From Patescibacteria group bacterium (GTDB taxonomy: Bacteria; Patescibacteriota; Minisyncoccia; Phycocordibacterales; JBHPGB01): a stretch of DNA of 64,000 nucleotides. The translations under genes and the position numbers were made by a program. Location: contig JBHPGB010000001.1 of assembly GCA_042571085.1 (NCBI GenBank), positions 3,190 to 67,189 of the forward strand, written 5' to 3'. Each line of letters begins with the position of its first letter. The stretch's first letter is position 1. The notes below the pieces were generated by a model. The model was given only the letters and a program-made list of their open reading frames with translations. It made no database searches and was not told the origin of the DNA. Of this stretch, positions 1 through 59,456 are shown one piece after another.

Positions 1-2019
1 GAGGTTCACGAAGGTGAAACAGTAACCGACTGGATGGAGCAAGAGCGTGAGCGCGGTATTACTATTACTGCCGCTGCTATTTCTTGCGGATGGATTCCTA
101 CATATGCAAATGGTGATGAAAGTGCTCGTAATACATTCAACATCATTGATACTCCAGGTCACATCGACTTTACTTCAGAGGTAAAGCGTTCTATGCGCGT
201 ACTAGATGGTGCTGTTGTTGTGTTTGATGGGGTTGCTGGTGTTGAGCCACAATCAGAAACAAACTGGCGTTATGCAGAAGAAGCTCAAGTGCCACGACTG
301 TGTTTCATAAACAAACTTGACCGAACAGGTGCCAGCTTTGAGCGTTCATATGCATCACTACTTGAGCGCCTTTCTCCAAAAGCAATGCGTGTACAAATTC
401 CAATCGGTGAAGAAGAGGCGCACGAAGGAGCTGTGGATCTTTTGACAATGAAAGCATACAAGTATGAAGGTGCGATGGGAGAGAATGTTATTGAAGAAGA
501 AATTCCTGAAAACTTGAAAGCCGATGCAGAAAAATACCGCGGAGAACTTATAGAAAAAATTGTTGAAAATGATGAAGACTTAATGAACAAATATCTTGAA
601 GGAGAAGAAATTCCTTTGGAGACTTTGAAAACAGAATTGCGTAAAGCAGTAATTGCAAATGAAGTATTCCCAGTATTTTGTGGTTCAGCTCTTAAAAATA
701 AAGGTGTGCAGCTCGTACTTAACGGAGTTGTTGATTATTTGCCAAGCCCACTTGATTTACCTGCTGCAAAAGGAACTAATCCTGACACAGGTGAAGAAAT
801 AGAACGTGAAGCAAATGATGATGCACCATTCTCTGCTTTGGTATTTAAGTTGCAAACAGACCCATTCGTAGGACAGCTTTCATTCTTCCGAGTGTATTCT
901 GGTTCTGTAGAAGCGGGTTCATATGTATATAATGCATCAACAGAAAAGAAAGAGCGTGTTGGTCGTATCGTGCGACTTCAGGCTGATAAACGTGAAGAGG
1001 TGAAAAAGGTTGGTACTGGAGAGATTGCTGCAATGGTTGGAATGAAAGAAGCAAAAATCGGACACACGCTATGTGATGAAGATAATCCTATAATTCTTGA
1101 AGAAATGACATTCCCAATTCCTGTTGTTGCTGTGCGTATCGAACCAAAAACAAAAGCAGACCAAGAAAAGATGGGTATGGCACTTGCAAAATTGTCAGAC
1201 GAAGACCCAACATTCAAAGTATCATCTGATCCAGAAACAATGGAAACAATTATTTCAGGAATGGGTGAGCTTCACTTGGATATTATTGTTGATCGTATGA
1301 AGCGTGAGTTCTCAGTGGAGGCAGATATTGGTAAACCACAAGTTGCATATCGTGAAACAATTACCGGAAATTCTTCATCAGAAGTTAAATATATAAAACA
1401 GTCTGGTGGACGTGGTCAGTATGGTCATGTGAAAATCAACATTAAACCAATGGACAAGGAAGTTGATGTGGAAGATTTGCCAAAGAATACAAGGCGAACT
1501 GAAATATTTGAATTCGTAAACAATATTAAAGGAGGTGTTATTCCACAAGAATATATTCCTGCTTGTGAAAAAGGATTTAAAGAAGCTATGGAGAAAGGTG
1601 TTGTTGCAGGATATCCGATGGTGGATGTGTCAGTAGATCTTTACGATGGTACATACCATGATGTTGACTCATCAGAAATTGCCTTCAAAATCGCATCTTC
1701 TCAAGCATTCCAAGATGCTGCTAAAAAAGCAAACGCAGTATTGCTTGAGCCAATCATGAAAGTAGAAGTACAGGTACCTGAAGAATACATGGGAGATGTA
1801 ACAGGATCTATCAACTCAAAGCGCGGACAAGTGGAATCTATGGATGATCGCGTAGGAGTGAAGGTTATTACTGCAAAAGTACCTCTTTCAGAAATGTTTG
1901 GGTATACAACAATGCTTCGCTCACAAACTCAAGGACGAGGTAATGCTGTGATGGAATTCTCACATTACGCAATTGTACCTAAGAATGTGGCTGAGGATAT
2001 TGTTTCTAAAAGAGCATAG
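1..2019 (+). CDS. fusA: Elongation factor G, 5'-truncated by window edge (reading frame open from base 1)
   Basis: Translation shows GTPase G-motifs (IIDTPGHIDF, FINKLDR) and EF-G domains IV/V; frame continues upstream of first Met at 34. Confidence 0.95.
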   Translation, partial: EVHEGETVTDWMEQERERGITITAAAISCGWIPTYANGDESARNTFNIIDTPGHIDFTSEVKRSMRVLDGAVVVFDGVAGVEPQSETNWRYAEEAQVPRLCFINKLDRTGASFERSYASLLERLSPKAMRVQIPIGEEEAHEGAVDLLTMKAYKYEGAMGENVIEEEIPENLKADAEKYRGELIEKIVENDEDLMNKYLEGEEIPLETLKTELRKAVIANEVFPVFCGSALKNKGVQLVLNGVVDYLPSPLDLPAAKGTNPDTGEEIEREANDDAPFSALVFKLQTDPFVGQLSFFRVYSGSVEAGSYVYNASTEKKERVGRIVRLQADKREEVKKVGTGEIAAMVGMKEAKIGHTLCDEDNPIILEEMTFPIPVVAVRIEPKTKADQEKMGMALAKLSDEDPTFKVSSDPETMETIISGMGELHLDIIVDRMKREFSVEADIGKPQVAYRETITGNSSSEVKYIKQSGGRGQYGHVKINIKPMDKEVDVEDLPKNTRRTEIFEFVNNIKGGVIPQEYIPACEKGFKEAMEKGVVAGYPMVDVSVDLYDGTYHDVDSSEIAFKIASSQAFQDAAKKANAVLLEPIMKVEVQVPEEYMGDVTGSINSKRGQVESMDDRVGVKVITAKVPLSEMFGYTTMLRSQTQGRGNAVMEFSHYAIVPKNVAEDIVSKRA

Positions 2020-14905: not shown

Positions 14906-15211
14906 ATGAAAATAAAAAAAGGAGACAACGTAATAATAATTGCCGGAAAGGACAAAGGTAAAGACGGAAAGGTGATAAAATCAATCCCCGCTAAAGATCA
15001 GGTGGTTATTGAGGGCGCAAATATCAAAAAGAAACACCAGAAAGCTCGAAAAGGTGGTCAGAAAGGACAAGTTATAGAATTTTCTGCACCAATACATGTT
15101 TCAAATGTAATGATTAAGGATCCGAAGACAGGAAAGCCTACTAGAGTAGGGATGAAAATAGATGGAAAGAAGAAAGTAAGAGTTACGAAAGCTAGTGGAG
15201 TAGAGGTGTAA
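14906..15211 (+). CDS. rplX: Ribosomal protein L24
   Basis: 101 aa; KIKKGDNVIIIAGKDKGK KOW motif. Confidence 0.93.
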   Translation: MKIKKGDNVIIIAGKDKGKDGKVIKSIPAKDQVVIEGANIKKKHQKARKGGQKGQVIEFSAPIHVSNVMIKDPKTGKPTRVGMKIDGKKKVRVTKASGVEV

Positions 15212-15250
15212 TTAGGCACTATTAAGCTCTGATAGATTAGATATAAAATC

Positions 15251-15796
15251 ATGGAATCAACAAAACAAAAACAAAATAAAATGTTTGATACTTTAAAAGG
15301 AATTTTTGAGTACAAAAATGTTATGCAGACACCTCGCGTTACTAAGGTGATTGTTAGTACAGGAGTTGGGTCAACACAAGATAAAGACAAAATTAAACTC
15401 ATTCCTGAGCGATTGGCTAAAATTACAGGGCAAAAACCAACAGCGCGTGCGGCAAAAAAATCAATCGCAACATTCAAATTGCGAGAAGGTGATATTGTTG
15501 GATACGCTGTAACACTACGCGGACAAAGAATGCATTCATTTTTAGACAAGTTGTTTAATGTTGTATTGCCACGAACCCGTGACTTCAAAGGACTCAATCG
15601 TTCAGCAATTGATGAAATGGGCAACCTTACAATCGGTATTAAAGAACACACAATTTTCTCAGAAACATCTGATGAAGAATTGAAAAATGTATTTGGTCTT
15701 TCAATAACACTTACAACAACAGCAAAAACAAAAGAAGAAGCGGAAAAATTGTTTGAAGAAATCGGAGTTCCGTTTAAGAAAAAGGAAGAAAAATAA
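15251..15796 (+). CDS. rplE: Ribosomal protein L5
   Basis: 181 aa; canonical L5. Confidence 0.95.
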   Translation: MESTKQKQNKMFDTLKGIFEYKNVMQTPRVTKVIVSTGVGSTQDKDKIKLIPERLAKITGQKPTARAAKKSIATFKLREGDIVGYAVTLRGQRMHSFLDKLFNVVLPRTRDFKGLNRSAIDEMGNLTIGIKEHTIFSETSDEELKNVFGLSITLTTTAKTKEEAEKLFEEIGVPFKKKEEK

Positions 15797-15849
15797 AACA
15801 ACAAGTATAAAAACAAACAAAAAACTAGCCATCACGGCTGGTTTTTTGT

Positions 15850-16446
15850 TTGTTTGACTTTCGTGTTTGTATTGATAATATGTGTATAGGTTCGGTTTTT
15901 TGTTGGAGAATGTATATGAATATTCCCATTGATCAAGATCCTAGTATTCCAGAAATGGATGTTTTGGAATGTTTATCTAATGAAGAACTCGCAAGACTTT
16001 TACTAAGACAGCTTTGGCAATGCTATGACAGTGGTGGAATATCTATAGGAAGATCTCCAGAAAGCCAGTTGCTTGAAGCTGTTATGAATATCATCCCATT
16101 ACCAGATCTTGTAGATATGGATAGATTTTATTCAGATGATATTATGATAGAAGCAAGGATTCGTTTTGTCGTGATAGGGCGTGAGTCGTGTGAAATGAAG
16201 CAGTGCGCTTTGTTTCAACAAGATCCTACGTTGTCTGATAACTGTCTTGTGTATTTGCTTCTGAAAAAACTAACCAACCTTTATGAAAAGGAAGAATTTC
16301 CAAGATTGGCTGAAGTTGGACTCATAACAAATGCAATGAAACTTATTTCTATTGATCTGATTGAGAATTTGGAGTCTTTGCCCGATTTTTCTGAAAAAGT
16401 TTTGTTGCAAGAAGCAGCTGATAGAGATTGGGCTAAAAATCATTAA
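15850..16446 (+). CDS. Hypothetical protein (inserted between rplE and rpsZ)
   Basis: 198 aa, Cys-rich N-terminus, no recognised motif; stop overlaps start of next gene (TAAATG). Confidence 0.55.
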   Translation: MFDFRVCIDNMCIGSVFCWRMYMNIPIDQDPSIPEMDVLECLSNEELARLLLRQLWQCYDSGGISIGRSPESQLLEAVMNIIPLPDLVDMDRFYSDDIMIEARIRFVVIGRESCEMKQCALFQQDPTLSDNCLVYLLLKKLTNLYEKEEFPRLAEVGLITNAMKLISIDLIENLESLPDFSEKVLLQEAADRDWAKNH

Positions 16447-17439
16447 ATGAGTGTTGTTATTTTATTTTGCAGCACTCTTTTTTGTTTAATTGACTTATGT
16501 GCTTGGACGAGTATTATGATACCAGGTTTGATTTTTGAGGATTTAACAATGAGTAATCGAAAGGTAAAACTGCTGACCTATGGAACAATTCCGTGCTGGT
16601 ACGAATTAAGTTGGGACAAAAATAACCTAGCAATAATTTTTAAGTTGCACAAAAACGCAATTTTGAATAATGGGATTGGTTTCGCCAAGAACTTTCCATC
16701 CGATGCTCCGATTGTAGAGCATTTGCATAAAAGTTTGGGTCTAAATGAGTTTTGCGGCAACTTAGATACAGATTTTGGTTTCGGTGGTGTGCTTAAACAC
16801 AAAGGAGAAGAGGGTGAATTCGTTGTCTTTTCTGTTGCGCTGCCAAATATACGAAAAACCACAAATAACAAATGCCCTATCTGTAATGATAATGGTGATG
16901 AAGGGTGTCTTTTTTGCGGTGGTAGTGGTGTGGAATGGAGATTTGATCATGATCTTCTATTTAATATTTCCGCATCTTTTGTAGTTATGTTTACGGCGTT
17001 TGGTGAGTATTCTGACTACGACACTGAATGTGAATTTCCACAATTGATGACGGTTGATCTAACGATTGAGAAAAGATCTGTGTATGGAGCTTGTATTGGT
17101 GGAAAATTTGGAATTGATTTGGTGAAGTGGATGAGTACTTTTAATCCAAATACCAAAATTACAGAAATGATAGAGGCGATGAAGTGCGCGTATGGACAGA
17201 TGTCCGGTATTGTTCCTGATAAATACGAAAGGTTTCTTGCAAGCATTGACTATGAAAACGGATGGCTTAATGTTAGTTGTCCTGGAAATGCATGCGGACT
17301 GAATCCTTCTAATGGAAACGTTTGTGCCGGTGAAGGATATGGGTTTTCTCCACATAATACAGACACACCCTTACAGCAGCTTACTCTTCTTGCTGGTCTT
17401 GCGGCATTGCATGACAAAGCCCGAAAAGAAATGCCCTAA
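16447..17439 (+). CDS. Hypothetical protein with DnaJ-type CxxC-x7-CxxCGGSG zinc-finger-like motif
   Basis: 330 aa; CPICNDNGDEGCLFCGGSG; translationally coupled to upstream ORF. Confidence 0.55.
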   Translation: MSVVILFCSTLFCLIDLCAWTSIMIPGLIFEDLTMSNRKVKLLTYGTIPCWYELSWDKNNLAIIFKLHKNAILNNGIGFAKNFPSDAPIVEHLHKSLGLNEFCGNLDTDFGFGGVLKHKGEEGEFVVFSVALPNIRKTTNNKCPICNDNGDEGCLFCGGSGVEWRFDHDLLFNISASFVVMFTAFGEYSDYDTECEFPQLMTVDLTIEKRSVYGACIGGKFGIDLVKWMSTFNPNTKITEMIEAMKCAYGQMSGIVPDKYERFLASIDYENGWLNVSCPGNACGLNPSNGNVCAGEGYGFSPHNTDTPLQQLTLLAGLAALHDKARKEMP

Positions 17440-39071: not shown

Positions 39072-40226
39072 ATGACTAAATTAAAACAATTTTTTACTGC
39101 TACACTTGCCGTTGCAGTACTTATGCCAGTCTTGGCATTTGGTGCCACTATTGAAGCAGGCGAGGAGGTTTTTATAAAAAAGGGTGAAAATATCAGAGAT
39201 AATGTATATGCTGCTGGCGGGAATGTTTCTGTGAGCAGTGCCGTATTTGGTGATTTGCTTACTGCTGGCGGTAATATTCTAATTTCAGAAAATGTGTCTG
39301 AAGATATCGCGGCGGCTGGTGGCGCTATTACAATTCTAGGTGATAGCAATGGAGATGTGCGTGTTGCCGGTGGGAACGTTTTGATTGCTGGTGATGTTGC
39401 TGGTGATTTGATTGTGGCTGGTGGTACCGTTACTGTTTCTTCTGATGTTTCTATCGGAAAAGATTTGGTGCTTGCTGGTGGACAGGTTTTATTTGATGGG
39501 AATGTTGCCGGAGATGCGCAGATTGCCGGAGGAATTGTGACTCTAAACGGTCACATAAAAGGAAATGTAAAAGCAGATATTGATGAGAAATTAACAATAG
39601 GTGACAGTGCTGTAATTGATGGAACTTTGGAATACGGCGCACGAAGTGAAGAAGTATTGGTCATTAGTGACAACGCAACAATAACAGGAGAGATCACATT
39701 TAAAGAAATGGAAAGAGTGAACACGGAAGGTGTGAAAAATTTTGTATTTGCAGCTGTTGGCGCTTTTGTACTCTTCAAACTAATTTCGTTCATTGTTGTA
39801 GCACTTATACTTGTGCTGCTCTTTAGAAATTTCTCAAATAAGGTTGTTGAGAAAGCCGTGCGTAAGCCACTCAAAATGCTCGGGAAAGGATTTGCAGTGC
39901 TCGTGCTCGTGCCCGTTGCGTCAGCAATACTATTTGCAACATTATTTGGCGCACCTCTTGCTTTAATAGCTTTGTCTATATATGGATTACTTCTAATTCT
40001 TTCTAGTATATACGGCGGTGTTGTTGTTGGAGCATGGCTTGCTGGTCTAATAAGTAAATCAGATCGTGTAAAAATAACATGGCAGAATGTAATTGGAGGT
40101 ATGTTTTTAATTACAGTGGTGAAATTCATACCGCTTATCGGATGGATTGCATGCCTGCTTGTGCTTTTGGTTACACTTGGAAGTATTTCACACATAGCGA
40201 GTAAAAAAATGTGGGGAGATAGATAA
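39072..40226 (+). CDS. Membrane protein with N-terminal extracytoplasmic bactofilin-like beta-helical repeats and C-terminal multi-TM region
   Basis: Signal peptide; repeats (D/N)VxxAGG(N/T)VxIxG; C-terminal 4 TM helices. Confidence 0.55.
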   Translation: MTKLKQFFTATLAVAVLMPVLAFGATIEAGEEVFIKKGENIRDNVYAAGGNVSVSSAVFGDLLTAGGNILISENVSEDIAAAGGAITILGDSNGDVRVAGGNVLIAGDVAGDLIVAGGTVTVSSDVSIGKDLVLAGGQVLFDGNVAGDAQIAGGIVTLNGHIKGNVKADIDEKLTIGDSAVIDGTLEYGARSEEVLVISDNATITGEITFKEMERVNTEGVKNFVFAAVGAFVLFKLISFIVVALILVLLFRNFSNKVVEKAVRKPLKMLGKGFAVLVLVPVASAILFATLFGAPLALIALSIYGLLLILSSIYGGVVVGAWLAGLISKSDRVKITWQNVIGGMFLITVVKFIPLIGWIACLLVLLVTLGSISHIASKKMWGDR

Positions 40227-40647: not shown

Positions 40648-41001
40648 CTATTTTATTATCTGGACGCTTTGGAGTATGCCGCACATTACTGTGTGGCGAA
40701 TAAATCTCTTAGCGTCAAAGCCTTCTAGTATTGTCGCAAGGTATTTCCTAAAGAAGTCGTGCCCCCATATCCCGTGTTCAACTGCACAAAGCAGGCTGTC
40801 TGCGTTTATGGGTCCGACATCAATTGCATTTCCATTTGGGGCACACATTTGCACCACTGCATTGAAGTGTGCTGCATTCCCAGGTTTTTTTAAGCCATCT
40901 TTAGCAAAAACTATAATTAATTTGTTGCCTGGCTTAGCTTTTGTGATGATTGTACGTATTTCGTCTGGAGACATCCCGACACACTCTGGTTGAGTATTCA
41001 T
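40648..41001 (-). CDS. Hypothetical protein (start at internal Met with AGGTGA RBS); longer ORF to 41160 is probably not translated
   Basis: AAGGTGAtcgtgATG context; Cys/His-containing 117 aa. Confidence 0.4.
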   Translation of the reverse strand: MNTQPECVGMSPDEIRTIITKAKPGNKLIIVFAKDGLKKPGNAAHFNAVVQMCAPNGNAIDVGPINADSLLCAVEHGIWGHDFFRKYLATILEGFDAKRFIRHTVMCGILQSVQIIK

Positions 41002-41276
41002 CACGATCACCTTTACAATTAAAACATCATAAAAGAAAGGAAGTGCAAGGAGAGCATGTTTGGAAACTGTTGACGTTGCGAGAAATTGTATTGTGAGGCG
41101 AGAATGTGGTGAGGAAAACGAGTCATAGCCGTAGCTATGATGAGTTTTTTGAACCGTCATTCGCAGCCCATAATACGATTTTGCAGTAGTCTAGAGTTTC
41201 CTAAATATGCTCGCGGTTAAAAACACCTAACCTACCTATACTGTACAATGGATTAAAATAATATGTCAAGCAATAA

Positions 41277-42393: not shown

Positions 42394-43674
42394 ATGATGA
42401 AAACTAAAACATCCGCAAAGCGGTACAGTGGCGGCCCTCGTTCTAAGGGCAATTCTCCACGAAAAAGAAAATTTTCAGGATCTTTTCGAAAAGGTCCTTC
42501 TTCTGGTGGGCGAAAATCACAAGGGGGTAGATCACAAGGTGGTAGAGGTAGATACAATAGTAAAAAGAAAACGAGTTTTGATTATAATTTGTTTATAAAT
42601 AAAGCGGTGACATCAACAGAAACCGTTGAGCATTTTGTGCCTGACAACGCTTTTGCTGATTTTGATGTTGATAAGCAAATAAAAGAAACACTTGCGAATC
42701 GTGGGTACGAAAACCCAACTCCAATTCAAGATAAAATTATTCCTCATATTTTAAAAGGTGAGGATGTTGTTGGTCTTGCAAATACTGGTACAGGTAAAAC
42801 AGCAGCATTTCTTATACCTATCATTCACAAATTATTGAATAATAGAAAACAAAGAGTATTGATACTTGCGCCAACACGAGAGCTGGCACTTCAGATAGAT
42901 GAGGAATTGAGCATTTTCGCAAAAAAATTGCATTTGTGTTCGGTTGTTTGTGTTGGTGGTGTGCGCATCGGTGGACAGATAAAGCAATTAAGATCACATA
43001 ATCATTTCATCATAGGAACACCAGGGCGTGTTATAGATTTAATGAAACAAAAGTATCTTAATCTTTCAGACGTAAAGACTGTGGTATTAGATGAGGCTGA
43101 TAGAATGCTAGACATGGGATTCATTAATGATATACGGTTTATCTTGGGGCAGGTTCCAGAAGAGCGACAATCACTTTGTTTTTCAGCAACCATGGCGCCA
43201 GAAATAGAAAGATTGGTAAAAGATTTTCTAATTGAGCCGGTTAAGATATCAGTGAAGACTCGAGATACATCAAAAAATATTGATCAAGATATTGTGCGTA
43301 TTGGCGGGAGAGATAAAACGGATATTCTTTCAGGCTATCTTGCACAGGATGAGTTTAAAAAGGTTATTGTGTTTGGGCGAACTAAGCATGGCGTAAGAAA
43401 ACTTTCTACCGTGCTAAATAAACGCGGATTAAATACAGAATCAATTCATGGAGACAAGAGTCACGTACAAAGACAATTGGCACTTAGGAAATTTAAAGAA
43501 GGTCGCTTAACGGCGCTTGTTGCAACTGATGTTGCTGCACGTGGACTTGATATCAGCGGAGTTACACACGTGATTAATTATGATCTTCCTGAAAGTTATG
43601 ATGATTATGTGCACCGCATCGGTAGAACAGGCCGAGGTGAGAATAAAGGAAAGGCACTCACATTTGTTGGATAG
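42394..43674 (+). CDS. DEAD-box ATP-dependent RNA helicase with N-terminal Arg/Gly/Ser-rich extension
   Basis: Q-motif region, GTGKT, VLDEADRMLDMGF (DEAD), SAT, HRIGRTGR. Confidence 0.9.
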   Translation: MMKTKTSAKRYSGGPRSKGNSPRKRKFSGSFRKGPSSGGRKSQGGRSQGGRGRYNSKKKTSFDYNLFINKAVTSTETVEHFVPDNAFADFDVDKQIKETLANRGYENPTPIQDKIIPHILKGEDVVGLANTGTGKTAAFLIPIIHKLLNNRKQRVLILAPTRELALQIDEELSIFAKKLHLCSVVCVGGVRIGGQIKQLRSHNHFIIGTPGRVIDLMKQKYLNLSDVKTVVLDEADRMLDMGFINDIRFILGQVPEERQSLCFSATMAPEIERLVKDFLIEPVKISVKTRDTSKNIDQDIVRIGGRDKTDILSGYLAQDEFKKVIVFGRTKHGVRKLSTVLNKRGLNTESIHGDKSHVQRQLALRKFKEGRLTALVATDVAARGLDISGVTHVINYDLPESYDDYVHRIGRTGRGENKGKALTFVG

Positions 43675-43844
43675 GCAAATTTTGCAACGCAAAATTTTTG
43701 ACCAAAAGAAAAAATTTAAAAATAGCCATGTTTATCGCATGGCTGTTTTTTATTCAGTATTTATTTGATGAAATATGTAATTCCTGTATTATTAAGTAGA
43801 TATATTTCGCGCTTATTATTTGCGATAAATGTAATTAAATCTAT

Positions 43845-44231
43845 ATGAAATACCGCATACTTATTATTGAAGATGATAAATTTTTCAGAAATATCGTAAC
43901 TCATAAATTTGAGGAATCAGATTTGGTTGAGGTTGATTTTTTGGAAAATGGAAAGGGGGCTGTAGAAAAGATAAAGAAATACACGCCAGATCTTGTATTG
44001 TTAGACTTACTAATGCCTGATGTTGGTGGATATGAAACTCTCAAAGCCGTTCGTTTTGATGAGGATGTGAAAGATACACCAATAATAATTTTGAGTAATC
44101 TTAGCAAGCAAGAAGATATAGACAAATGTAAAGCATATGGGAGCGTTGATTTTATGGTGAAGGCCATGAGCTCACCTCAGGAGATAGTTGATAGGACACT
44201 TGAGTTTTTGGAAGGGCAGGCGAAGCAATAA
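43845..44231 (+). CDS. Single-domain response regulator (CheY-like receiver)
   Basis: D-D...D(LLDLLMPD)...T...K pattern; 128 aa. Confidence 0.8.
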   Translation: MKYRILIIEDDKFFRNIVTHKFEESDLVEVDFLENGKGAVEKIKKYTPDLVLLDLLMPDVGGYETLKAVRFDEDVKDTPIIILSNLSKQEDIDKCKAYGSVDFMVKAMSSPQEIVDRTLEFLEGQAKQ

Positions 44232-44295: not shown

Positions 44296-44994
44296 TTAAT
44301 ATTCCTCAGTAGTATTTAGAAAATATTCAGCAAAAAAATGATTTTTTGATTTTGAAAGCAATTTGATTATTTGTGCAACACCAGGCATAAGTTTTCTTTG
44401 CTTCATATCATTTGTACTCATCCATGAACAAGTTCCTATAGATGAATCTTCTATAAATTTTCCAACAATATTTTTTCCTACAAAAATATGACAGAGCATG
44501 TGTGTGATTAATTTTTCCTCATCGCTAATATGTAAATAGATATCTCCTCTATGTTTCAAGACCCCTGTTAAACCAACTTTTTCTTTTAATTCACGCCCTG
44601 CGCTTTCTTGTATTCTCTCTTCAAGATGAATTTTTCCATAGGGGAATCCGAACTGGTTAATCAGAGGTTGACGCTTTCTCTTGTAGATAAGATACTCACC
44701 TTTTTTGTTTGTTAAGACTAAAAGGGTCACGATTTTTGGCTGAATGCGCTCGTCAAAGCTTTTCAGAGTCACCCTGTCTACATATTGTTTACCTTTTGCA
44801 GATAGAACATACGCGCCTGTTTGTTTAGAAATGTAGCCACTGGAAATTATCTTTTTCAGGTGATACATGAACATATTTCCTTCAACCGATTTTGGTTTCA
44901 GGTCTCTATATCTTGCTTTTCCGAGTAATGTGAGTTTTTTCAATATGTGTTTTTGTAAATCGTGCATAGTAGTTAGAGTATACGTAAAACTCAA
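44296..44994 (-). CDS. Winged-HTH plus Nudix-domain protein (regulator-like; Nudix box with E-to-K substitution)
   Basis: N-terminal wHTH; Nudix box GKIHLEERIQESAGRELKEKVGL. Confidence 0.7.
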   Translation of the reverse strand: MSFTYTLTTMHDLQKHILKKLTLLGKARYRDLKPKSVEGNMFMYHLKKIISSGYISKQTGAYVLSAKGKQYVDRVTLKSFDERIQPKIVTLLVLTNKKGEYLIYKRKRQPLINQFGFPYGKIHLEERIQESAGRELKEKVGLTGVLKHRGDIYLHISDEEKLITHMLCHIFVGKNIVGKFIEDSSIGTCSWMSTNDMKQRKLMPGVAQIIKLLSKSKNHFFAEYFLNTTEEY

Positions 44995-45077
44995 TTTGAG
45001 TCAATTTTTTTTGACTAGACTCCATATAAGGTCGAGGGCTATCATGATTATGGGTGTTCTTTTCAAAAGCATAGGAG

Positions 45078-45959
45078 ATGATCATGACATGCATAGATCG
45101 TATTTATAGTGTATCCGCACTGGTCGGATCCGGAACCTGTAATGGGAAATGTGCCTTTTGCGCTGGTGAGTATTTGCGACCTCAGGCAGAAAATCCCGAT
45201 ACGGAAAAGTATTGGAAAAATTTTAAGTCTGCGATCAGGCTTTGTGCGAGATATGGCGGGTGGTCTTTATCGCTCACAAGTAGCGGTGAGCCGACTTGCG
45301 ATCCGAATGCGGTAACAAAAGCGCTTGAAGCTTATCAAGAGTGTGCGCAAGAAGGCGCCTACTTTCCTAATGTAAATTTGTTTACGAATGGAATTGAATT
45401 CGGTAGAGACAAATTTTGCGATAAATGGTTGCCAATTTGGAAGGGTCTTGGTCTGACAAATATTGCCGTCTCAATACACTCCACAAGTATTGAAAAGCAA
45501 GCTGAAGCTTATGGTCTACCAAAGTACCCAGAGTTTAACACCATATTCAACAATATTCGCAAACATGGTGTTGGGCTAAGGTGCACATTGTTGCTAAGAA
45601 AAGGAGAGGTGGATAATGCTGCTCGTTATAAAGAAGCTGTTCATCATTTGATAGAGCGACATGGTGTAGACAACATTACGTCTTGGCCCGTAGCTGAACC
45701 AGATGGTGTACGAAGTGAATTTACTCCATCACGGCTTGGTATGCTATCAATACGTAATTGGCTTAGGAAAAATACCATATTGTGCCACGGGCATTCGTGG
45801 GGTGGTGGAGTCTATGACTACAATGGCAACATTCTCAGACTGACCGACTATGTGACAAAACATAATCGACGAAAGGATTTTGTGAGGCAGCTCGTAGTGT
45901 TCCAGGATGGAACAGTTGCTTATTCGTGGATTAAAGAAGGTGCGTTGTGCATGAAGTAA
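45078..45959 (+). CDS. Radical SAM enzyme, paralog 1 (unassigned subfamily)
   Basis: CNGKCAFC (CX3CX2C), SSGEPT glycine-rich SAM motif, TNG ribose motif; 293 aa. Confidence 0.75.
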   Translation: MIMTCIDRIYSVSALVGSGTCNGKCAFCAGEYLRPQAENPDTEKYWKNFKSAIRLCARYGGWSLSLTSSGEPTCDPNAVTKALEAYQECAQEGAYFPNVNLFTNGIEFGRDKFCDKWLPIWKGLGLTNIAVSIHSTSIEKQAEAYGLPKYPEFNTIFNNIRKHGVGLRCTLLLRKGEVDNAARYKEAVHHLIERHGVDNITSWPVAEPDGVRSEFTPSRLGMLSIRNWLRKNTILCHGHSWGGGVYDYNGNILRLTDYVTKHNRRKDFVRQLVVFQDGTVAYSWIKEGALCMK

Positions 45960-46032
45960 CATATTCGGGCGGTGGATGTATTTATGTTCATCGCCCATTA
46001 TTGTTTATCCGACTACTTATATGAGGTGAGTT

Positions 46033-46833
46033 ATGGAAAATAGTCTTTCACTTTTTGTTGGTACAAGAAAATGCAATGCTCATTGTGGACACTGTGCTGG
46101 CAAGGTTCATCGTAGGCATGCTCCTACCAAAGATGGGATTGTGGATGAAGAGTTGGTAATTAAAACACTTAGAGACTGCTATGTCAGTGGAGCGCGACGC
46201 TTAACGATCAGCAGTAGTGGAGAACCAACACTGTCTCCAATTTCAGTGACTAAAGTATTTCAGATCATTGATAATATGCGAAGAAAGGAAGGTGTTGTAT
46301 ATTCGCCAATAAGTCTTTACTCAAATGGTATTAGGATTGGAGAAGACCAGTGTTTTTCTGAAGAATATCTTCCATTGTGGAAGGCACTTGGTTTGACTAA
46401 GGTTTATATAACAATCCATGATATCAACGAGCATGAAAATGCTAAGATTTATAGAATTGCAGAATATCCAAAATTGGTGACGATAATTGAGAGGATTCAC
46501 GATGCAGACTTGTTGATGAGAGCAAATCTTGTACTCAGTCGTAACACAACGTGTGAACTTGGGAAATTCATTTCAATTGTCAAACATTTGGAAGATATTG
46601 GCGCAGATAGTATTTCCGCGTGGCCAATTCGTGGGATTGACGATGAGGTTGATAAGGAAAGAGCTCCTATTGCTTCTGAGATGAATAAAATGAGTGAGTG
46701 GGCTTTGCAATATTCCAGACCAGGATTTGAATTGCGTGTGTTGGGGGAGGAGAATCGAATCGCATATCAATCAGGTCAGAAGTTAACATTATTTCCCGAC
46801 GGTAGTTTATCGGGGACATGGTGTAATAACTAA
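46033..46833 (+). CDS. Radical SAM enzyme, paralog 2
   Basis: CNAHCGHC, SSGEPT, SNG; 266 aa; same motif spacing as paralog 1. Confidence 0.75.
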   Translation: MENSLSLFVGTRKCNAHCGHCAGKVHRRHAPTKDGIVDEELVIKTLRDCYVSGARRLTISSSGEPTLSPISVTKVFQIIDNMRRKEGVVYSPISLYSNGIRIGEDQCFSEEYLPLWKALGLTKVYITIHDINEHENAKIYRIAEYPKLVTIIERIHDADLLMRANLVLSRNTTCELGKFISIVKHLEDIGADSISAWPIRGIDDEVDKERAPIASEMNKMSEWALQYSRPGFELRVLGEENRIAYQSGQKLTLFPDGSLSGTWCNN

Positions 46834-46894
46834 ACATAATCTATCTAAATGATATTCCGCCACGTCTGTGGCGGATTTTTTTTGTTTGTGGAGA

Positions 46895-46914
46895 TGGGGA
46901 GAATGTCCCGCAGT
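46895..46914 (-). repeat. Duplicate of the 3'-terminal 20 nt of the tmRNA gene (attachment-site-like direct repeat)
   Basis: TTTGTGGAGATGGGGAGAAT identical to 47137-47156. Confidence 0.6.
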
Positions 46915-47074
46915 TACTAATCTTTTTGCTTGAAGGAATGCTTCACATGCTATTTGATAGAGAATCGGGGTCAAGTCACATCAATATTTTGTTCGTGCTT
47001 CGCACTCCAAAATATTGTGTGCTTCCTCCCCGGACTCGCTTCCCATTCTTCCAGAATGGGTCCCGGCTCCGTCT

Positions 47075-47160
47075 TTCGATTCTCCCCATCTCTCACAAAC
47101 GCAAACGCCGCCAAAGCAATGCTTTGGCGGCGGCGTTTTGTGGAGATGGGGAGAATCGAA
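47075..47160. repeat. About 85-bp near-perfect palindrome built from inverted copies of the tmRNA T-arm/acceptor (TTCGATTCTCCCCATCTC) around an 11-bp GC hairpin
   Basis: Left arm 47075-47117, loop AAT, right arm 47121-47160; inner GCCGCCAAAGC/GCTTTGGCGGC. Confidence 0.65.
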
Positions 47161-47685
47161 CTCCCGTGCAAATAATGCTTCTGAATGAGTCTACAAAGGT
47201 TAGTACACTTTGGTTTGTTTAGAAGAGTGAGCTAAAAAGTGAACAAAATTTCTCACACCTCGATTCTCTATGTTTCGGTATTGTATCGAGAAATAATACT
47301 CTTTCCGATTAAATACTTCTTAAGAAAACCTCAGAATTTTAGACGAGACAAAGTAAAAAATATAAAGAATATCCTTAGATATTTTGAATATTTTTTGCAA
47401 AGTCGTAGTCAAAATTATGGTGTTTTCAAGGAGTAGTTAATCGGAAAGGGTATAAAACAAGACCTAGTCTGAAAAATATTACACTCAGATTTCACCTATC
47501 AAACTTTAGTGAACTGAACGCCGGCTTAGGCTAAAGCGTAAGCTGGAGAAGCAAAGTATGGGCTAACCATTGCTTTTGCTTTTTGTGACAAGTTTGCACT
47601 TATCGTGTGTAGCCTTTTGAATAGTTACTACAGCTATCCTTCGCACATGCAAAAGGGAAATCATCTGTCGATACCGATCACCCCC
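47141..47685 (-). ncRNA. ssrA: tmRNA (ssrA) candidate, unusually long (about 545 nt) with about 200-nt AT-rich insertion before the T-arm
   Basis: 5' GGGGGUGAUCGGUAUCGACAG (tmRNA 5' consensus), acceptor pairing GGGGGUG/CAUCUCC with G3-U wobble, tag ORF ending ...ASPAYALA-UAA, 3' GGGAG-UUCGAUU-CUCCC T-arm; adjacent to smpB. Confidence 0.6.
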
Positions 47686-47736: not shown

Positions 47737-48183
47737 CTAAAATTGCTTAATATCTCTAGCAACCTCTCTTTCAACGTCTCGTTTTTTAATGCTCTCGCGT
47801 TTGTCGTATTTCTTCTTTCCTTTAGCTATAGCCAGCTCAAGCTTTATCTTATTACCCTTAGTATAAACACTTATTGGCACTATTGTCAAGCCCTTCTGGC
47901 TTTCTGCTCCAGCAAGCTCTTTCAGTTCCTTCTTATTTAGCAAGAGTTTTCTGGTGCGTGCAGGGTCGTAGTCTTTCGGTGTATTTGCTGGCTGATATGG
48001 TGGAATTGTTGCCCCAACCAAAAATGCTTCATTTCCGCGTATAATCACGTGCGCACCTTCAAAAGAACCCTGATTATTCTTCAGACTTTTCACTTCAAAA
48101 CCGAGTAAAACCATACCGGCTTCAAATTTATCAAGCAGCTCATAATTGAAACGTGCTTTTTTGTTTTGTATCAATGTAGGCAT
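47737..48183 (-). CDS. smpB: SsrA-binding protein SmpB
   Basis: 148 aa; canonical SmpB (KARFNYELLDKFEAG...). Confidence 0.93.
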   Translation of the reverse strand: MPTLIQNKKARFNYELLDKFEAGMVLLGFEVKSLKNNQGSFEGAHVIIRGNEAFLVGATIPPYQPANTPKDYDPARTRKLLLNKKELKELAGAESQKGLTIVPISVYTKGNKIKLELAIAKGKKKYDKRESIKKRDVEREVARDIKQF

Positions 48184-50555: not shown

Positions 50556-50586
50556 GCGCGTAAGCGGCATTGGTAGAGCGCAGAAG
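50556..50586 (+). pseudogene. Degenerate 5' half of a tRNA paralog (to anticodon stem), interrupted by IR-bounded insert
   Basis: GCGCGTAagcggcaTTGGTAGAGCGCAGAag vs intact GCGCGTAtagctcagTTGGTAGAGCGCAGAgc. Confidence 0.5.
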
Positions 50587-50605
50587 TATATCAAAATAAT
50601 TTTAA
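50587..50605. repeat. Left 19-bp perfect inverted repeat TATATCAAAATAATTTTAA flanking the tRNA
   Basis: Exact reverse complement at 50719-50737. Confidence 0.8.
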
Positions 50606-50627
50606 AATAATATATGGAAATATGAGT

Positions 50628-50700
50628 GCGCGTATAGCTCAGTTGGTAGAGCGCAGAGCTTATACCTCTGTGGTCCTAGGTTCAAGTCCTAGTGCGCGCA
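50628..50700 (+). tRNA. tRNA with anticodon UAU (tRNA-Ile decoding AUA by anticodon; 73 nt, no encoded CCA)
   Basis: Cloverleaf: acceptor GCGCGTA/TGCGCGC, D-arm GCTC-AGTTGGTA-GAGC, anticodon stem CAGAG/CTCTG loop CTTATAC, T-arm CTAGG-TTCAAGT-CCTAG. Confidence 0.85.
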
Positions 50701-50718
50701 CTCATCATTTCATATAGA

Positions 50719-50737
50719 TTAAAATTATTTTGATATA
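50719..50737. repeat. Right 19-bp perfect inverted repeat TTAAAATTATTTTGATATA
   Basis: Reverse complement of 50587-50605. Confidence 0.8.
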
Positions 50738-50763
50738 CCTCTGTGGCCCTAGGTCTCCCTGAG
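50738..50763 (+). pseudogene. Degenerate 3' portion of the interrupted tRNA paralog
   Basis: taCCTCTGTGGcCCTAGGTctccc vs intact taCCTCTGTGGtCCTAGGTtcaag. Confidence 0.45.
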
Positions 50764-55545: not shown

Positions 55546-56085
55546 ATGGGGGATATAATCATGCTTACGCGACTTTTTGTTGTTTTGGGAGTACTTATTC
55601 TGGTTCCGGGGTGTGCTGCTATGCAGGACACAATGCAAACAATCAGTAATGATCACAGCCATGGTGTTGTAAAAGAGGTTGTGGTATCGTCTGATGTGCA
55701 GGAGAAAAACAGACTGCTCGGCAGTTTCGACAAATCCCGGAGAGGTTTTTTGGGGAGGTTTCCAATAAAAGATCTGAGGTTGATTGTCGGGCAATTTGAT
55801 AAATCATTCGCGATTAAGCTTGAAGAAGATTCAGAAATATCTAAAGAATGGCCATCTGTCATTTATGATGATAAGGATAATAAGCTCGAGTTGCACTACG
55901 ATAATAAACTCACTGTGCAAAGAGAAGGGGACTATTGTGTGGCGTTTACACTGACCATGGAGAAGGTTGGTGGTGCTGCTCATTTGTATAGAGCACACGA
56001 ACAATATGCGTATAGAAACAAGGCTGGTGTCTGGAGTAGTTTAAAAAGCTACTCAATCCATCATTGGTGTTATAAGGATTCTTAA
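55546..56085 (+). CDS. Putative lipoprotein
   Basis: Signal peptide with lipobox LVPGC. Confidence 0.5.
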   Translation: MGDIIMLTRLFVVLGVLILVPGCAAMQDTMQTISNDHSHGVVKEVVVSSDVQEKNRLLGSFDKSRRGFLGRFPIKDLRLIVGQFDKSFAIKLEEDSEISKEWPSVIYDDKDNKLELHYDNKLTVQREGDYCVAFTLTMEKVGGAAHLYRAHEQYAYRNKAGVWSSLKSYSIHHWCYKDS

Positions 56086-56167
56086 CACAAAAATTCCACC
56101 AAGTTCAAAGGGGCAGGATTTATATCCGGCCCCTTTTTTGTATGACGTAATTGGTAGATAAAATGCA

Positions 56168-56197
56168 GTGCGGAGAGTGAGGGATTCGCCCCTCACA
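56168..56197 (-). repeat. Degenerate copy of tRNA-Ser 3' end (T-arm with 6-nt loop + acceptor + 3' flank)
   Basis: GAGGGgcgaatCCCTCACTCTCCGCACTG vs intact GAGGGttcgaatCCCTCACTCTCCGCACTG. Confidence 0.6.
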
Positions 56198-56264
56198 AAT
56201 CAAAGATTTGTTCCGAAACGCACTGTAAATATATTCGCTCCGCTCATTATTTACAGGCGCCTAC

Positions 56265-56285
56265 GGTTCGAATCCCTCACTCTCC
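56265..56285 (+). repeat. Inverted-orientation copy of tRNA-Ser 3' end
   Basis: GGTTCGAATCCCTCACTCTCC on + strand. Confidence 0.6.
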
Positions 56286-58865: not shown

Positions 58866-59456
58866 ATGCCCCTAGATCAGCCACAACAATCTTTCGTTCC
58901 AAAGAAACCAATCACAGCCCAGAGGAAAGTTAAAAAAGCTTCCGGGGGACTTTTTTTTGGTATTTCTCTTATAATATTTATTCTAGCAGCAGGATCAGCA
59001 GGCTCAGTGTATTTTTATGAATTGTATCTGGAGAAAAAGGTTGAAAATATGAGAACTTCACTAGAGCGTGCAAAAGAAGCATTTGAACCATCTTTAATTC
59101 TTGAATTGAAAAATCTGGATGCACGCATAAAGTCAGCTGAAAATATTTTAAATAATCACATAGCCTTCTCAGAATTTTTTACCTTATTGGAGAAAGATAC
59201 ATTAAAAACAGTTAGATTTAATAATTTTGATTATTCTGTTGATGGTACTGGAGAAATAAATATTCGTCTGAGCGGGGAGGCAAAGAGCTATTCATCAGTT
59301 GCTCTGCAGTCCGACATTTTTGGAGAAAGTAAGTTTATAAAAAATCCAATTTTTTCTGATTTGAGTTTAGATGATGGAGGGAATGTAACATTTAATGTTA
59401 CAGCGGATGTCGACCAAGAATTAGTTTTGTACAGCAAATCGTTAGATAAAAAGTAA
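58866..59456 (+). CDS. PilN-like pilus assembly protein (bitopic)
   Basis: Single N-terminal TM then periplasmic coiled coil; position after pilM. Confidence 0.55.
   Translation: MPLDQPQQSFVPKKPITAQRKVKKASGGLFFGISLIIFILAAGSAGSVYFYELYLEKKVENMRTSLERAKEAFEPSLILELKNLDARIKSAENILNNHIAFSEFFTLLEKDTLKTVRFNNFDYSVDGTGEINIRLSGEAKSYSSVALQSDIFGESKFIKNPIFSDLSLDDGGNVTFNVTADVDQELVLYSKSLDKK

What the first reader, a model, noticed from the sequence alone, without database searches (positions are those of the whole stretch)
46880..47280. ssrA 3'-end fragments in direct and inverted orientation forming an about 85-bp palindrome: integration/excision scars
The terminal 20 nt of the tmRNA gene recur as a direct repeat at 46895-46914 (immediately after the radical-SAM terminator). 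An inverted copy of the T-arm/acceptor (47075-47092) plus an 11-bp GC hairpin makes a near-perfect long palindrome with the real 3' end. A further partial copy (CTCGATTCTCT) sits at 47258-47270. tmRNA 3' ends are classic att sites for islands and phages. This pattern suggests repeated site-specific recombination at ssrA, with the radical-SAM/Nudix locus lying just beyond the outer repeat.
Basis: seen in the sequence. Interest (0 to 1): 0.6.

Follow-up and report, generated by a model that had tools for sequence, protein, structure and literature searches.

The report
Structured mini-insertion at tmRNA gene end
The repeated tmRNA-end fragments are real, but they are the ends of a small (about 250 bp) protein-less, highly folded insertion element that sits in the 3' end of the tmRNA gene; its family recurs behind tmRNA and tRNA genes of many ultra-small (Patescibacteria) bacteria and matches nothing in Rfam or the papers I searched.

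Summary
The repeats exist and are far beyond chance: 3 copies of a 14-mer against 0.02 expected. The tmRNA gene lies on the minus strand (47685-47138). Its last 20 nt recur directly at 46885-46904, not 46895-46914, and inverted at 47075-47092.

They are not decayed phage scars. The same layout follows tmRNA or tRNA genes (Ile-UAU, Gly, Ser-GCU) in about 30 loci from divergent Patescibacteria. In order it is:
- the gene's 3' end
- a terminator hairpin
- an inverted copy of that end
- a core of covarying hairpins
- a direct copy of the end

In every copy the arms match whichever gene lies upstream. A covariance model gives 89% paired cells, with compensatory changes in 32 of 36 pairs.

Empty and occupied sites in relatives (L034/L040 vs L051; L024/L031 vs L013) show it is an insertion. 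The outer direct copy keeps the original flank. The gene-proximal end, terminator and inverted copy arrived with the element.

The window holds about 1.3 units at ssrA and a mini copy at tRNA-Ser. No integrase, transposase or reverse transcriptase is in the 64 kb. Rfam and the literature gave nothing.

The movement mechanism is inferred: recombination at the T-loop, catalysed in trans. Whether the fold acts as RNA or as single-stranded DNA is open.

The parts
47737..48183 (-). smpB, directly upstream of ssrA (context)
   Evidence: Pfam SmpB, E 1e-51. The same order smpB-ssrA is seen in relatives.
47138..47685 (-). ssrA (tmRNA gene). The discriminator A is at 47141, and the CCA positions are encoded as CAA.
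   Evidence: Rfam RF00023, 50.2 bits, full length. The tag reading frame ends ...PAYALA*, as read from the alignment.
47137..47160 (-). C: the T-loop, T-stem 3' strand, acceptor 3' strand and 4 nt of trailer of the tmRNA. Direct-repeat copy 1 is 47137-47156. I infer this is the element-borne replacement end.
   Evidence: In relatives the flank continuity lies with copy A, not with C.
47106..47132 (.). X: a 13-bp GC hairpin with A- and T-rich flanks, at the centre of the 86-bp palindrome. It is terminator-like on both strands.
   Evidence: An equivalent hairpin sits at this position in most family members.
47075..47100 (-). B: inverted copy of C, matching rc(C) at 24 of 25 positions. The perfect 14-mer is 47079-47092. 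The window copy lacks the P1a hairpin that splits B in most relatives.
   Evidence: In all 14 copies compared, B matches rc(C) at least as well as rc(A).
47030..47071 (-). P3 hairpin of the core (CGGAGC...GAGUCCG)
   Evidence: MFE fold. Aligns with P3 of L007 and L019. P3 pairs covary in the family.
46973..47024 (-). P4 long hairpin with the apical GAG-UGC-GAA-GCA-CGAA motif (tandem G.A)
   Evidence: The model R1 match covers 46960-47087 at 19.7 bits, E 0.004. P4 covaries and has a conserved G-U at its base.
46957..46972 (-). Degenerate first displaced end (GACCCCGATTCTCTAT), equivalent to the 3' strand of the closing stem of unit 1
   Evidence: Aligns with GTGACCGATTCTCCC of L019 and GTGACCAATTCTCCCC of L007. 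Inverted-repeat pair I4.
46905..46956 (-). Truncated second unit: a short hairpin plus the right-end motif UUAGUAACUGCGGGAC
   Evidence: Aligns with the inter-unit segment of the L019 tandem array. The L288 array has the same layout.
46885..46904 (-). A: direct-repeat copy 2, identical at 20/20 to the tmRNA 3' end from inside the T-loop. I infer this is the displaced original end.
   Evidence: By analogy with L051 and L013, where A carries the ancestral flank.
46856..46875 (.). Second terminator-like hairpin, shared with the convergent radical-SAM gene that ends at 46833
56166..56285 (-). Second, miniature family copy behind tRNA-Ser(GCU), whose gene runs 56440->56353. B is 56285->56265, followed by a P4-like hairpin with GAGCG-GAG-CGAA, then A at 56188->56166. 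Both arms match the tRNA-Ser 3' end.

Best explanation
The repeats are the ends of a miniature, non-coding, highly structured insertion element lodged in the 3' end of ssrA.

The element belongs to a family found in Patescibacteria directly behind tmRNA genes and some tRNA genes. Read on the gene's strand, one unit has four parts:
1. C: a replacement copy of the host gene from the T-loop to a few nt past the 3' end.
2. X: a terminator hairpin.
3. B: an inverted copy of C. In most members it is split, exactly at the acceptor/T-stem boundary, by a conserved hairpin P1a with loop AACUGCUU or CUGC.
4. A core of two covarying hairpins: P3, and P4 with tandem G.A and the 3' motif UGUGACC.

A, the displaced original 3' end, follows the unit and still carries the original flank.

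Shown here:
- The family exists.
- Its helices covary.
- Its arms track whichever gene lies upstream.
- It is an insertion relative to empty sites.
- The host gene stays intact.
- B co-evolves with C rather than with A.
- Tandem and partial units occur. The window has one full unit without P1a plus one truncated unit.

Inferred:
- The element enters by recombination between its own copy of the gene end (C) and the chromosomal gene, with the exchange in or near the T-loop.
- That reaction would be catalysed by an enzyme supplied in trans, such as a tyrosine recombinase or Xer-type enzyme.
- The functional form would be a fold in which B pairs with C (or with A once integrated) to close the core. 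That fold could be single-stranded DNA, as in the folded attP of CTX phage or integron attC sites. It could instead be an RNA whose closing helix imitates the acceptor/T-arm helix of a tRNA.
For: Family:
- Inverted plus direct copies of the gene end follow tmRNA genes in L006, L007, L013, L016, L019, L021, L050, L051, L053 and in L090, L092, L106, L137.
- Model R1 adds L047, L064, L069, L129, and copies behind tRNA-Ile(UAU) in L005/L107, L016, L027, L053 and L142.
- A repeat scan adds tRNA-Gly (L037, L049), tRNA-Ile (L008) and tRNA-Ser in the window.

Structure:
- 89.1% of cells are paired, against 38-44% when partners are slid.
- 32 of 36 pairs show changes on both sides, and 0 of 500 shuffles reach this.
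- Single-sequence folds have z-scores of -6.6 to -8.4.

Insertion:
- L051 differs from L034 and L040 by 158 nt that include a 28-nt duplication starting inside the T-loop.
- In L013, the flank that follows the tmRNA in L024 and L031 follows copy A instead.

C, X and B behave as one unit:
- B matches rc(C) at 24/24 in L007 and L050, 23/24 in L013 and 24/25 in the window.
- Its match to rc(A) is shorter and poorer.
- Copy A encodes CCA or CC where the gene-proximal copy does not in L013, L021, L047 and L069.

Window copy:
- It aligns end to end with L019 unit 1 plus its inter-unit segment, and with L007.
- G+C peaks at 0.46 in a genome of about 0.38.

Strain variation:
- L284 has an identical SmpB and 99.9% identical DNA up to window position 47457.
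- Beyond that point it has a diverged tmRNA 3' third and a different flank.

Not a described family:
- Rfam gives no match at E up to 10 apart from chance miRNA-type hits and sub-threshold tmRNA_permuted.
- Five literature searches returned nothing.
Against: - No recombinase, transposase or reverse transcriptase is in the 64-kb window.
- No excised form or empty site has been seen for this genome itself.
- The start of the duplication varies across T-loop positions, and its length varies from about 17 to 28 nt or more. There is therefore no sharp, fixed crossover point.
- Presence or absence could reflect repeated loss by recombination between the direct repeats rather than gain.
- The closest host pairs carry the most similar elements (L069/L129, L047/L069), which fits vertical descent at short range.
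- Only 1 of 2.9 million viral contigs carries the family, so a phage vehicle is unlikely.
- How the arms come to match three or four different host genes is not explained by simple integration.
- The window copy scores only 19.7 bits with the model, because it lacks P1a and carries an extra module.
Confidence: 0.6

Rival explanations
1. It is a resident non-coding RNA gene with tRNA-like ends. The unit B-core-A would be transcribed by read-through of the tmRNA/tRNA terminator, or from an AT-rich promoter overlapping it. The B:A helix copies the acceptor/T-stem helix of the neighbouring gene, so RNase P, RNase Z and the CCA-adding enzyme would trim it. The core (P1a loop, tandem G.A in P4) would bind an unknown partner. 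The family would be old, inherited vertically, kept similar to the neighbouring gene by gene conversion, and lost often by recombination between the direct repeats.
For: - The helices covary strongly.
- G-U pairs outnumber A-C by 35 to 19 on the gene's strand, including a conserved G-U at the base of P4.
- P1a emerges exactly at the acceptor/T-stem boundary, where the D and anticodon arms leave a real tRNA.
- A terminator often follows A.
- Some A copies encode CCA.
- G+C is raised in an AT-rich genome.
- The closest hosts have the most similar copies.
Against: - B is tied to C, not to A. A functional B:A helix would keep B complementary to A, yet L007, L013, L019 and L050 have mismatches there while B matches rc(C) at 23/24 or 24/24 in L007, L013 and L050, and by eye in L019.
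- A strong terminator separates the unit from the only evident promoter, and no conserved promoter was seen.
- P1a is Watson-Crick in 174 of 176 cells with a single G-U. That is unusual for an RNA helix varying this much.
- The A3-U70 pair in place of G3.U70 rules out alanine charging (sequence).
- Occupied and empty sites differ by clean insertions.
- The alignment was fitted to a sense-strand model, which inflates the G-U count.
Confidence: 0.25
2. One reading: these are decayed att-site scars left by repeated integration and excision of phages or islands at ssrA. On this view the sequence between the repeats is non-functional debris, for example fused attL and attR arms after loss of the island interior.
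For: - Displaced 3' fragments in direct orientation are the classical mark of integration into tmRNA or tRNA genes (Islander abstract, PMC4383910, listed).
- The repeat starts in the T-loop, a known crossover site (PMC1762012).
- The spacing of about 250 bp is close to the size of a complete lambda-type attP (my own knowledge).
- A partial extra unit is present.
- The locus varies between strains.
Against: - Debris would not keep four helices with compensatory changes across hosts whose SmpB proteins are only 41-86% identical.
- Debris would not keep conserved loop sequences shared between the tmRNA-linked and tRNA-Ile-linked copies.
- No integrase gene or pseudogene lies between or beside the repeats. 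The longest ORFs there (66-98 aa) overlap the hairpins.
- The inverted copy is not produced by integrase-type recombination.
Confidence: 0.08
3. It is an over-grown bidirectional terminator. A terminator hairpin behind the gene would have been extended outward by template switching at quasi-palindromes. That would copy the gene's end first in inverted and then in direct orientation, with no function beyond termination.
For: - The C-X-B palindromes are near perfect, up to 60 nt in L050 and 86 bp in the window.
- The hairpins score as terminators on both strands.
- P1a and X are almost purely Watson-Crick.
Against: - It does not explain the conserved core (P3 and P4, GAAAG, GGGGUCG...UGUGACC).
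- It does not explain the homology between copies at different genes and in different hosts.
- It does not explain the tandem units.
- It does not explain the clean 158-nt difference between occupied and empty sites.
Confidence: 0.05

Closest known systems
Genomic islands and prophages integrated into tmRNA/tRNA genes by tyrosine integrases, and their integrase-less derivatives (cis-mobilizable elements)
   Same: - The inserted DNA brings a copy of the gene's 3' end that restores the gene.
- The displaced fragment marks the far end (PMC4383910 abstract).
- The duplication begins in the T-loop.
- Occupied and empty sites both exist.
- Tandem units occur.
   Different: - It is only 130-250 bp, with no integrase, no cargo and no ORF.
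- It carries an inverted copy of its own attachment sequence.
- It has a core of covarying hairpins.
- The same core family is adapted to several different target genes.
Folded single-stranded attachment sites: CTX-phage attP(+) recombined by host XerCD, and integron attC
   Same: - Two copies of a target-like site in inverted orientation can fold into a stem that imitates the double-stranded target (PMC4246890).
- After integration the order is direct copy, inverted copy, spacer, direct copy, which is the order seen here (C ... B-core-A).
- Catalysis is by a host enzyme in trans, so no recombinase gene is needed on the element.
- The helices are almost purely Watson-Crick, while the sequences differ between copies.
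   Different: - There is no resemblance to dif or attI/attC sequences.
- The target is a tRNA-like gene end.
- The whole element is little more than the folded site.
- No Xer or IntI involvement has been tested.
- The core is more elaborate than a plain hairpin.
Group I introns in the T-loop of tmRNA genes
   Same: - A small, non-coding, structured element uses the tmRNA T-loop as its entry point. That is known at four T-loop subsites in 21 phyla (PMC11915505).
- The host gene remains functional.
   Different: - The tmRNA here is not interrupted. A complete 3' end (C) precedes the element, and the exon sequence is duplicated.
- There is no group I core and no Rfam Intron_gpI match at E up to 10.
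- No U at -1 / terminal G boundary rule can be satisfied (sequence).
Circularly permuted (two-piece) tmRNA genes
   Same: The order T-arm, acceptor 3' strand, loop, acceptor 5' strand gives repeated sub-threshold matches to RF04321 across the C-X-B junction, at 19.7-25.8 bits.
   Different: - A full standard tmRNA with its tag frame is present.
- All scores are below the 47-bit threshold.
- B is the exact complement of C, giving A3-U70 rather than G3.U70.
- No coding piece follows.
MITEs and REPIN-type palindromic repeats
   Same: It is short, non-coding and hairpin-forming, has terminal inverted repeats (a perfect 14-mer at 46891-46904 / 47079-47092), and depends on an enzyme in trans.
   Different: - The ends are copies of the local target gene, not of a transposon.
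- Copies sit only behind tRNA-like genes.
- The duplication is long and variable in length.

Membership tests
Integrase-mediated island in a tmRNA gene (Islander-type definition) | An intact gene plus a displaced 3' fragment in direct orientation | tested here: met
   A 20/20 direct repeat at 47137-47156 and 46885-46904
Integrase-mediated island in a tmRNA gene (Islander-type definition) | A tyrosine integrase gene inside the element, next to the gene | tested here: not met
   Only 232 bp lie between the repeats, and they hold no credible ORF. No integrase, transposase or RT domain appears in any window ORF of 170 aa or more.
Integrase-mediated island in a tmRNA gene (Islander-type definition) | Occupied versus empty sites, with the original flank attached to the displaced fragment | tested here: met
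   Met for family members L051 vs L034/L040 and L013 vs L024/L031. For the window itself there is only a variant allele with a different flank (L284).
Structured RNA (or folded single-strand) family | Helices kept by compensatory changes across homologues | tested here: met
   32 of 36 pairs have changes on both sides. 89% of cells are paired, against about 40% when partners are slid, and 0 of 500 shuffles reach this.
Structured RNA (or folded single-strand) family | Transcription and defined RNA ends | not testable with these tools
   No expression data are available. The promoter scan shows nothing convincing ahead of B.
Any Rfam 15 family | A match at or above the family's gathering score | tested here: not met
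   Only RF00023 for the tmRNA itself reaches threshold. The element gives chance miRNA-type hits and tmRNA_permuted at 19.7-25.8 bits, against a threshold of 47.
Group I intron in the tmRNA T-loop | The gene is interrupted, the exon sequence is present once, the boundaries are -1 U and terminal G, and there is a group I core | tested here: not met
   The tmRNA is complete before the element. The exon end is duplicated. There is no Intron_gpI hit.
Permuted two-piece tmRNA | An acceptor piece followed by a coding piece, no standard gene, and RF04321 at 47 bits or more | tested here: not met
   A standard gene with its tag frame is present. RF04321 scores 19.7 bits in the window.
Folded single-stranded att site (CTX attP(+) / attC type) | Two inverted target-like sites able to fold into a mimic of the target, giving a direct-inverted-direct order after integration | tested here: met
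   C, B and A are in that order. B is complementary to C at 24/25 positions and to A at 20/21.
Folded single-stranded att site (CTX attP(+) / attC type) | Recombination by Xer or IntI on a single-stranded substrate | not testable with these tools
   This needs biochemistry or genetics. No such gene is in the window, and the rest of the genome was not available.
MITE | Terminal inverted repeats of a parent transposon, a fixed short target duplication, and dispersed copies | tested here: not met
   The inverted repeats are copies of the adjacent gene and differ between loci. The duplication runs from about 17 to 28 nt. Copies occur only behind tRNA-like genes.

The most novel reading that the evidence does not exclude
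This would be a previously unrecognised class of protein-less, self-folding miniature integrative elements specific to the T-loop-to-3'-end segment of tRNA-like genes. Each element would carry a replacement gene end, its own terminator and an inverted copy of its attachment sequence, so the element folds into a mimic of its target. It would be mobilised in trans, possibly as single-stranded DNA or through an RNA intermediate, in the reduced genomes of Patescibacteria.
Probability: 0.35. Interest if true: 0.85.

Novelty: new variant of a known kind. Interest (0 to 1): 0.7.

Why it matters
tRNA and tmRNA gene ends are the classic landing sites for mobile DNA, but the known occupants are kilobase-sized and bring their own integrase. 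A 130-250 bp, non-coding, strongly structured occupant would be a new lowest tier of that traffic. It restores the gene, carries a terminator, and holds a hairpin copy of its own attachment site.

It could matter in three practical ways:
- It could explain some of the stray tRNA and tmRNA fragments that confuse annotation of CPR genomes.
- It gives a concrete candidate for host-enzyme-driven (Xer-like) or RNA-mediated mobility in organisms with minimal genomes.
- It offers about 30 aligned copies with clear covariation for structural and biochemical work.

If it proves instead to be a resident RNA, it is a new tRNA-end-mimicking RNA class linked to the trans-translation locus.

Tried and rejected
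1. **Inverted duplication of the tmRNA body.** The element cores show no significant similarity to the reverse complement of the tmRNA body in 7 of 8 loci. Only the window has one 14/15 match, at z = 3.1. Rejected.

2. **Group I intron and permuted tmRNA.** Both rejected; see the membership tests.

3. **Phage-borne attP.** Four pattern scans of 2.9 million viral contigs were run. They gave chance hits (L161, L162-L241, L289-L327) and one true tandem array, on a contig whose ORFs look cellular to me (not Pfam-checked) (L288).

4. **Cognate integrase in the window.** None found. ORFs without a Pfam match remain at 2245-2868, 15058-15816 (-), 15850-17439, 39072-40226, 40648-41160, 55546-56085 and 58866-59456.

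5. **Closer relatives of the window genome.** The best SmpB identity is 70% in the genome collection and 73% in metagenomes. Exact-protein look-ups returned the same MAG (GCA_042577165.1) plus three short contigs. No empty site for this genome could be obtained.

6. **Element similarity versus host SmpB similarity.** The correlation is weak (r = 0.30), so it does not decide between vertical and horizontal spread.

7. **Hammerhead-like reading of the P4 GAG...CGAA motif.** Rejected by eye, because the motif is not preceded by CUGA.

8. **Literature.** Five searches found no description of the element. One further search call failed on syntax.
Full report
**1. Checking the observation**

Rfam places a full-length tmRNA on the minus strand at 47685-47138 (RF00023, 50.2 bits). 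It lies directly downstream of smpB at 47737-48183. ARAGORN misses it.

The repeat finder gives TTTGTGGAGATGGGGAGAAT twice, 20/20 identical, at 46885-46904 and 47137-47156. The second site is the tmRNA 3' end. An inverted copy has its perfect 14-mer at 47079-47092. The palindrome spans 47075-47160 around a 13-bp GC hairpin at 47106-47132.

The 14-mer occurs 3 times in the window against 0.02 expected. The 20-mer occurs twice against 0.02 expected.

Three corrections apply:
- The central hairpin has 13 bp, not 11.
- The 'partial copy' at 47258-47270 lies inside the tmRNA body and is also present in a variant allele.

**2. Host organism and relatives**

A SmpB-based search shows the organism is a member of the Patescibacteria (CPR). 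The closest relatives have only 70-73% SmpB identity. In all relatives checked, ssrA directly follows smpB.

**3. The pattern recurs in relatives**

The same layout follows the tmRNA in L006, L007, L013, L016, L019, L021, L050, L051, L053, L090, L092, L106 and L137. Read on the gene's strand, it is:
1. The gene's 3' end (C).
2. An A-rich stretch, a GC hairpin and a T-rich stretch (X).
3. The reverse complement of the acceptor 3' strand.
4. Usually a 25-55 nt hairpin (P1a).
5. The reverse complement of the T-stem 3' strand and T-loop. Items 3 to 5 together are B.
6. GAAAG, then a hairpin beginning CGGAGC (P3).
7. GGGGUCG, then a long hairpin with an apical GAG...CGAA motif, then UGUGACC (P4).
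8. A direct copy of the gene end, starting inside the T-loop (A).

Single sequences fold far better than shuffles, with z-scores of -6.6 to -8.4.

**4. Family and structure**

A covariance model built from seven copies (A1, R1) finds further copies.
- At tmRNA genes: L047, L069, L129.
- Next to an unidentified gene at a contig end: L064.
- Behind tRNA-Ile(UAU) genes: L005/L107, L016 (two units), L027, L053, L142.

A direct scan of every tRNA and tmRNA in the held loci adds tRNA-Gly (L037, L049), tRNA-Ile (L008), and tRNA-Ser(GCU) in the window itself.

In every case the arms B and A match the gene that lies immediately upstream.

On the 21-sequence alignment:
- 89.1% of cells are paired, against 38-44% when partners are slid.
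- 32 of 36 pairs show changes on both sides.
- No shuffle out of 500 reaches the observed values.

P1a is Watson-Crick in 174 of 176 cells. P4 has a conserved G-U at its base and tandem G.A near its tip. Overall, G-U outnumbers A-C by 35 to 19 on the gene's strand. The alignment was fitted to a model of that strand, so this count is biased.

Rfam has no family for the element. Only sub-threshold tmRNA_permuted matches (19.7-25.8 bits) cross the C-X-B junction.

**5. The element is an insertion**

BLAST of the sequence beyond copy A against all held loci found two informative sets.

Set 1:
- L034 and L040 have ...GGGTTCAATTCCCGCCATCTCCACCA(A/T)AATAA... running straight into ...AAACCCTTGCGCATTTCAAG....
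- L051 has the same tmRNA and the same flank.
- In L051 they are separated by 158 nt, which end in a second copy of the 28-nt AATTCCCGCCATCTCCACCAAAATAATT.

Set 2:
- The flank ATGGAAATATAT(A/G)GAAGAATATG... follows the tmRNA in L024, and a diverged version of it follows the tmRNA in L031.
- In L013 it follows copy A.

A is therefore the displaced original end with its original flank. C, X, B and the core are the inserted material. Three further points agree with this:
- B matches the reverse complement of C at least as well as that of A in all 14 copies compared. The figures are 24/24 in L007 and L050, 23/24 in L013 and 24/25 in the window.
- In L013, L021, L047 and L069, copy A encodes CCA or CC while the gene-proximal copy does not.
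- The hairpin X is absent from the empty sites.

**6. The window copy**

The window copy aligns end to end with L019 unit 1 plus its inter-unit segment, and with L007 up to the first pseudo-end. Its parts are:

| Part | Coordinates (minus strand) |
|---|---|
| B | 47100-47075 (no P1a) |
| P3 | 47071-47030 |
| P4 | 47024-46973 |
| Degenerate displaced end | 46972-46957 |
| Truncated second unit | 46956-46905 |
| A | 46904-46885 |
| Second terminator-like hairpin | 46875-46856 |

Model R1 matches 46960-47087 at 19.7 bits, E 0.004. Tandem full and partial units also occur in L019, L016 and L288.

A miniature copy follows tRNA-Ser(GCU). The gene runs 56440-56353, B is 56285-56265 and A is 56188-56166.

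**7. Variation at this locus**

Three other samples carry the identical SmpB protein.
- One contig (L284) is 99.9% identical up to window position 47457. Beyond that it lacks the 156-nt hairpin insertion of the window's tmRNA and has a diverged 3' third (acceptor CACTTCC). It ends in a different flank.
- A second contig (L285) breaks exactly at that point.

The radical-SAM and response-regulator proteins were found only in the same MAG as the window.

Upstream synteny (recG, tRNA-Ile, ftsH, smpB, ssrA) is shared with relatives. None of the five genes downstream of ssrA (two radical-SAM genes, NUDIX, response regulator, DEAD-box helicase) appears behind ssrA in any of the 160 related loci. No further tmRNA fragment bounds those genes.

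**8. Mechanism**

Shown: a small non-coding element inserted between the tmRNA body and its original end. It preserves the gene, carries a terminator and an inverted copy of the gene end, and has conserved helices.

Inferred: entry is by recombination between the element's copy of the gene end and the chromosomal gene, in or near the T-loop. The enzyme would act in trans, since no integrase, transposase or reverse transcriptase is in the window.

The order C-X-B-core-A is what integration of a small circle with the order (gene end)-X-B-core would produce. It also parallels the direct-inverted-direct arrangement left by CTX phage. That phage's folded single-stranded attP is built from two inverted dif-like sites and is recombined by host XerCD (PMC4246890).

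The nearly pure Watson-Crick helices P1a and X fit a folded-DNA reading. So does the tie between B and C. The G-U and G.A features of P4 fit an RNA reading. So does the position of P1a at the acceptor/T-stem boundary. I cannot decide between the two.

**9. Rivals**

- A resident tRNA-end-mimicking RNA gene remains possible (0.25).
- Decayed island scars (0.08) and an over-grown terminator (0.05) are contradicted by the conserved, covarying core shared between hosts and between different target genes.

**10. Comparison with known systems**

The closest kinds are:
- Islands integrated in tmRNA/tRNA genes (PMC4383910).
- Folded single-stranded att sites.
- Group I introns of the tmRNA T-loop (PMC11915505).
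- Permuted tmRNA genes.

The element shares the target with each of these, or the architecture, or both. It fails at least one defining feature of every family tested. The literature and Rfam searches found no description of it.

Noticed in passing
window 47296-47453 (minus strand, inside ssrA): The tmRNA carries a 156-nt self-complementary insertion whose arms are 83% complementary. This makes the gene 548 nt long and lowers its Rfam score to 50 bits. A near-identical strain (L284) lacks the insertion, and a second contig (L285) breaks at its border (47457).
   Followed up: partly
window 50570-50760: The tRNA-Ile(UAU) gene (50628-50701) lies in a 150-bp segment bounded by 19-bp inverted repeats (50587-50605 and 50719-50737). 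That segment splits an older tRNA-Ile copy at its anticodon loop, leaving fragments at 50570-50584 and 50734-50760. It looks as if a cassette carrying a tRNA gene was inserted into a tRNA gene.
   Followed up: partly
window 56166-56285 (minus strand): A miniature copy of the same element family sits behind tRNA-Ser(GCU). Its arms match the tRNA-Ser 3' end.
   Followed up: yes
L007 303-630 (-) and L006 about 740-800 (-): Second tRNA-Ile-like copies lie downstream of the functional gene. The L007 copy carries three insertions, and the L006 copy has a 20-nt palindrome inside the T-loop. The tRNA-Ile(UAU) locus appears to be a hotspot of rearrangement in this group.
   Followed up: no
window 44296-46833 and 42394-44231: Two radical-SAM genes, a NUDIX gene, a response regulator and a DEAD-box helicase lie downstream of ssrA. 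None has a counterpart behind ssrA in 160 related loci, whereas the upstream block recG-tRNA-Ile-ftsH-smpB is conserved. G+C of the radical-SAM genes is slightly raised (0.42-0.44).
   Followed up: partly
window 15850-17439: Two ORFs of 198 and 330 aa with no Pfam match lie inside the ribosomal-protein gene cluster.
   Followed up: no
L288 2842-3319 (-): An IMG/VR contig (GC about 55%) holds a tandem array of at least three units of the family. Its ORFs in the stretch held (ORF listing) look like ordinary cellular enzymes to me (acetyltransferase, epimerase, deaminase); they were not Pfam-checked. It was the only true hit among the viral contigs.
   Followed up: partly
L029 4813-4881; L002 1944-1978 (-); L005 4970-5090: Other oddities behind tRNA-like genes were seen. 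L029 has a plain tandem duplication of the tmRNA 3' end 44 nt apart, with no core. L002 has a 12-nt copy of the tRNA-Ile acceptor strand 10 nt downstream of the gene. L005 has a 35-nt direct repeat behind its tmRNA.
   Followed up: no
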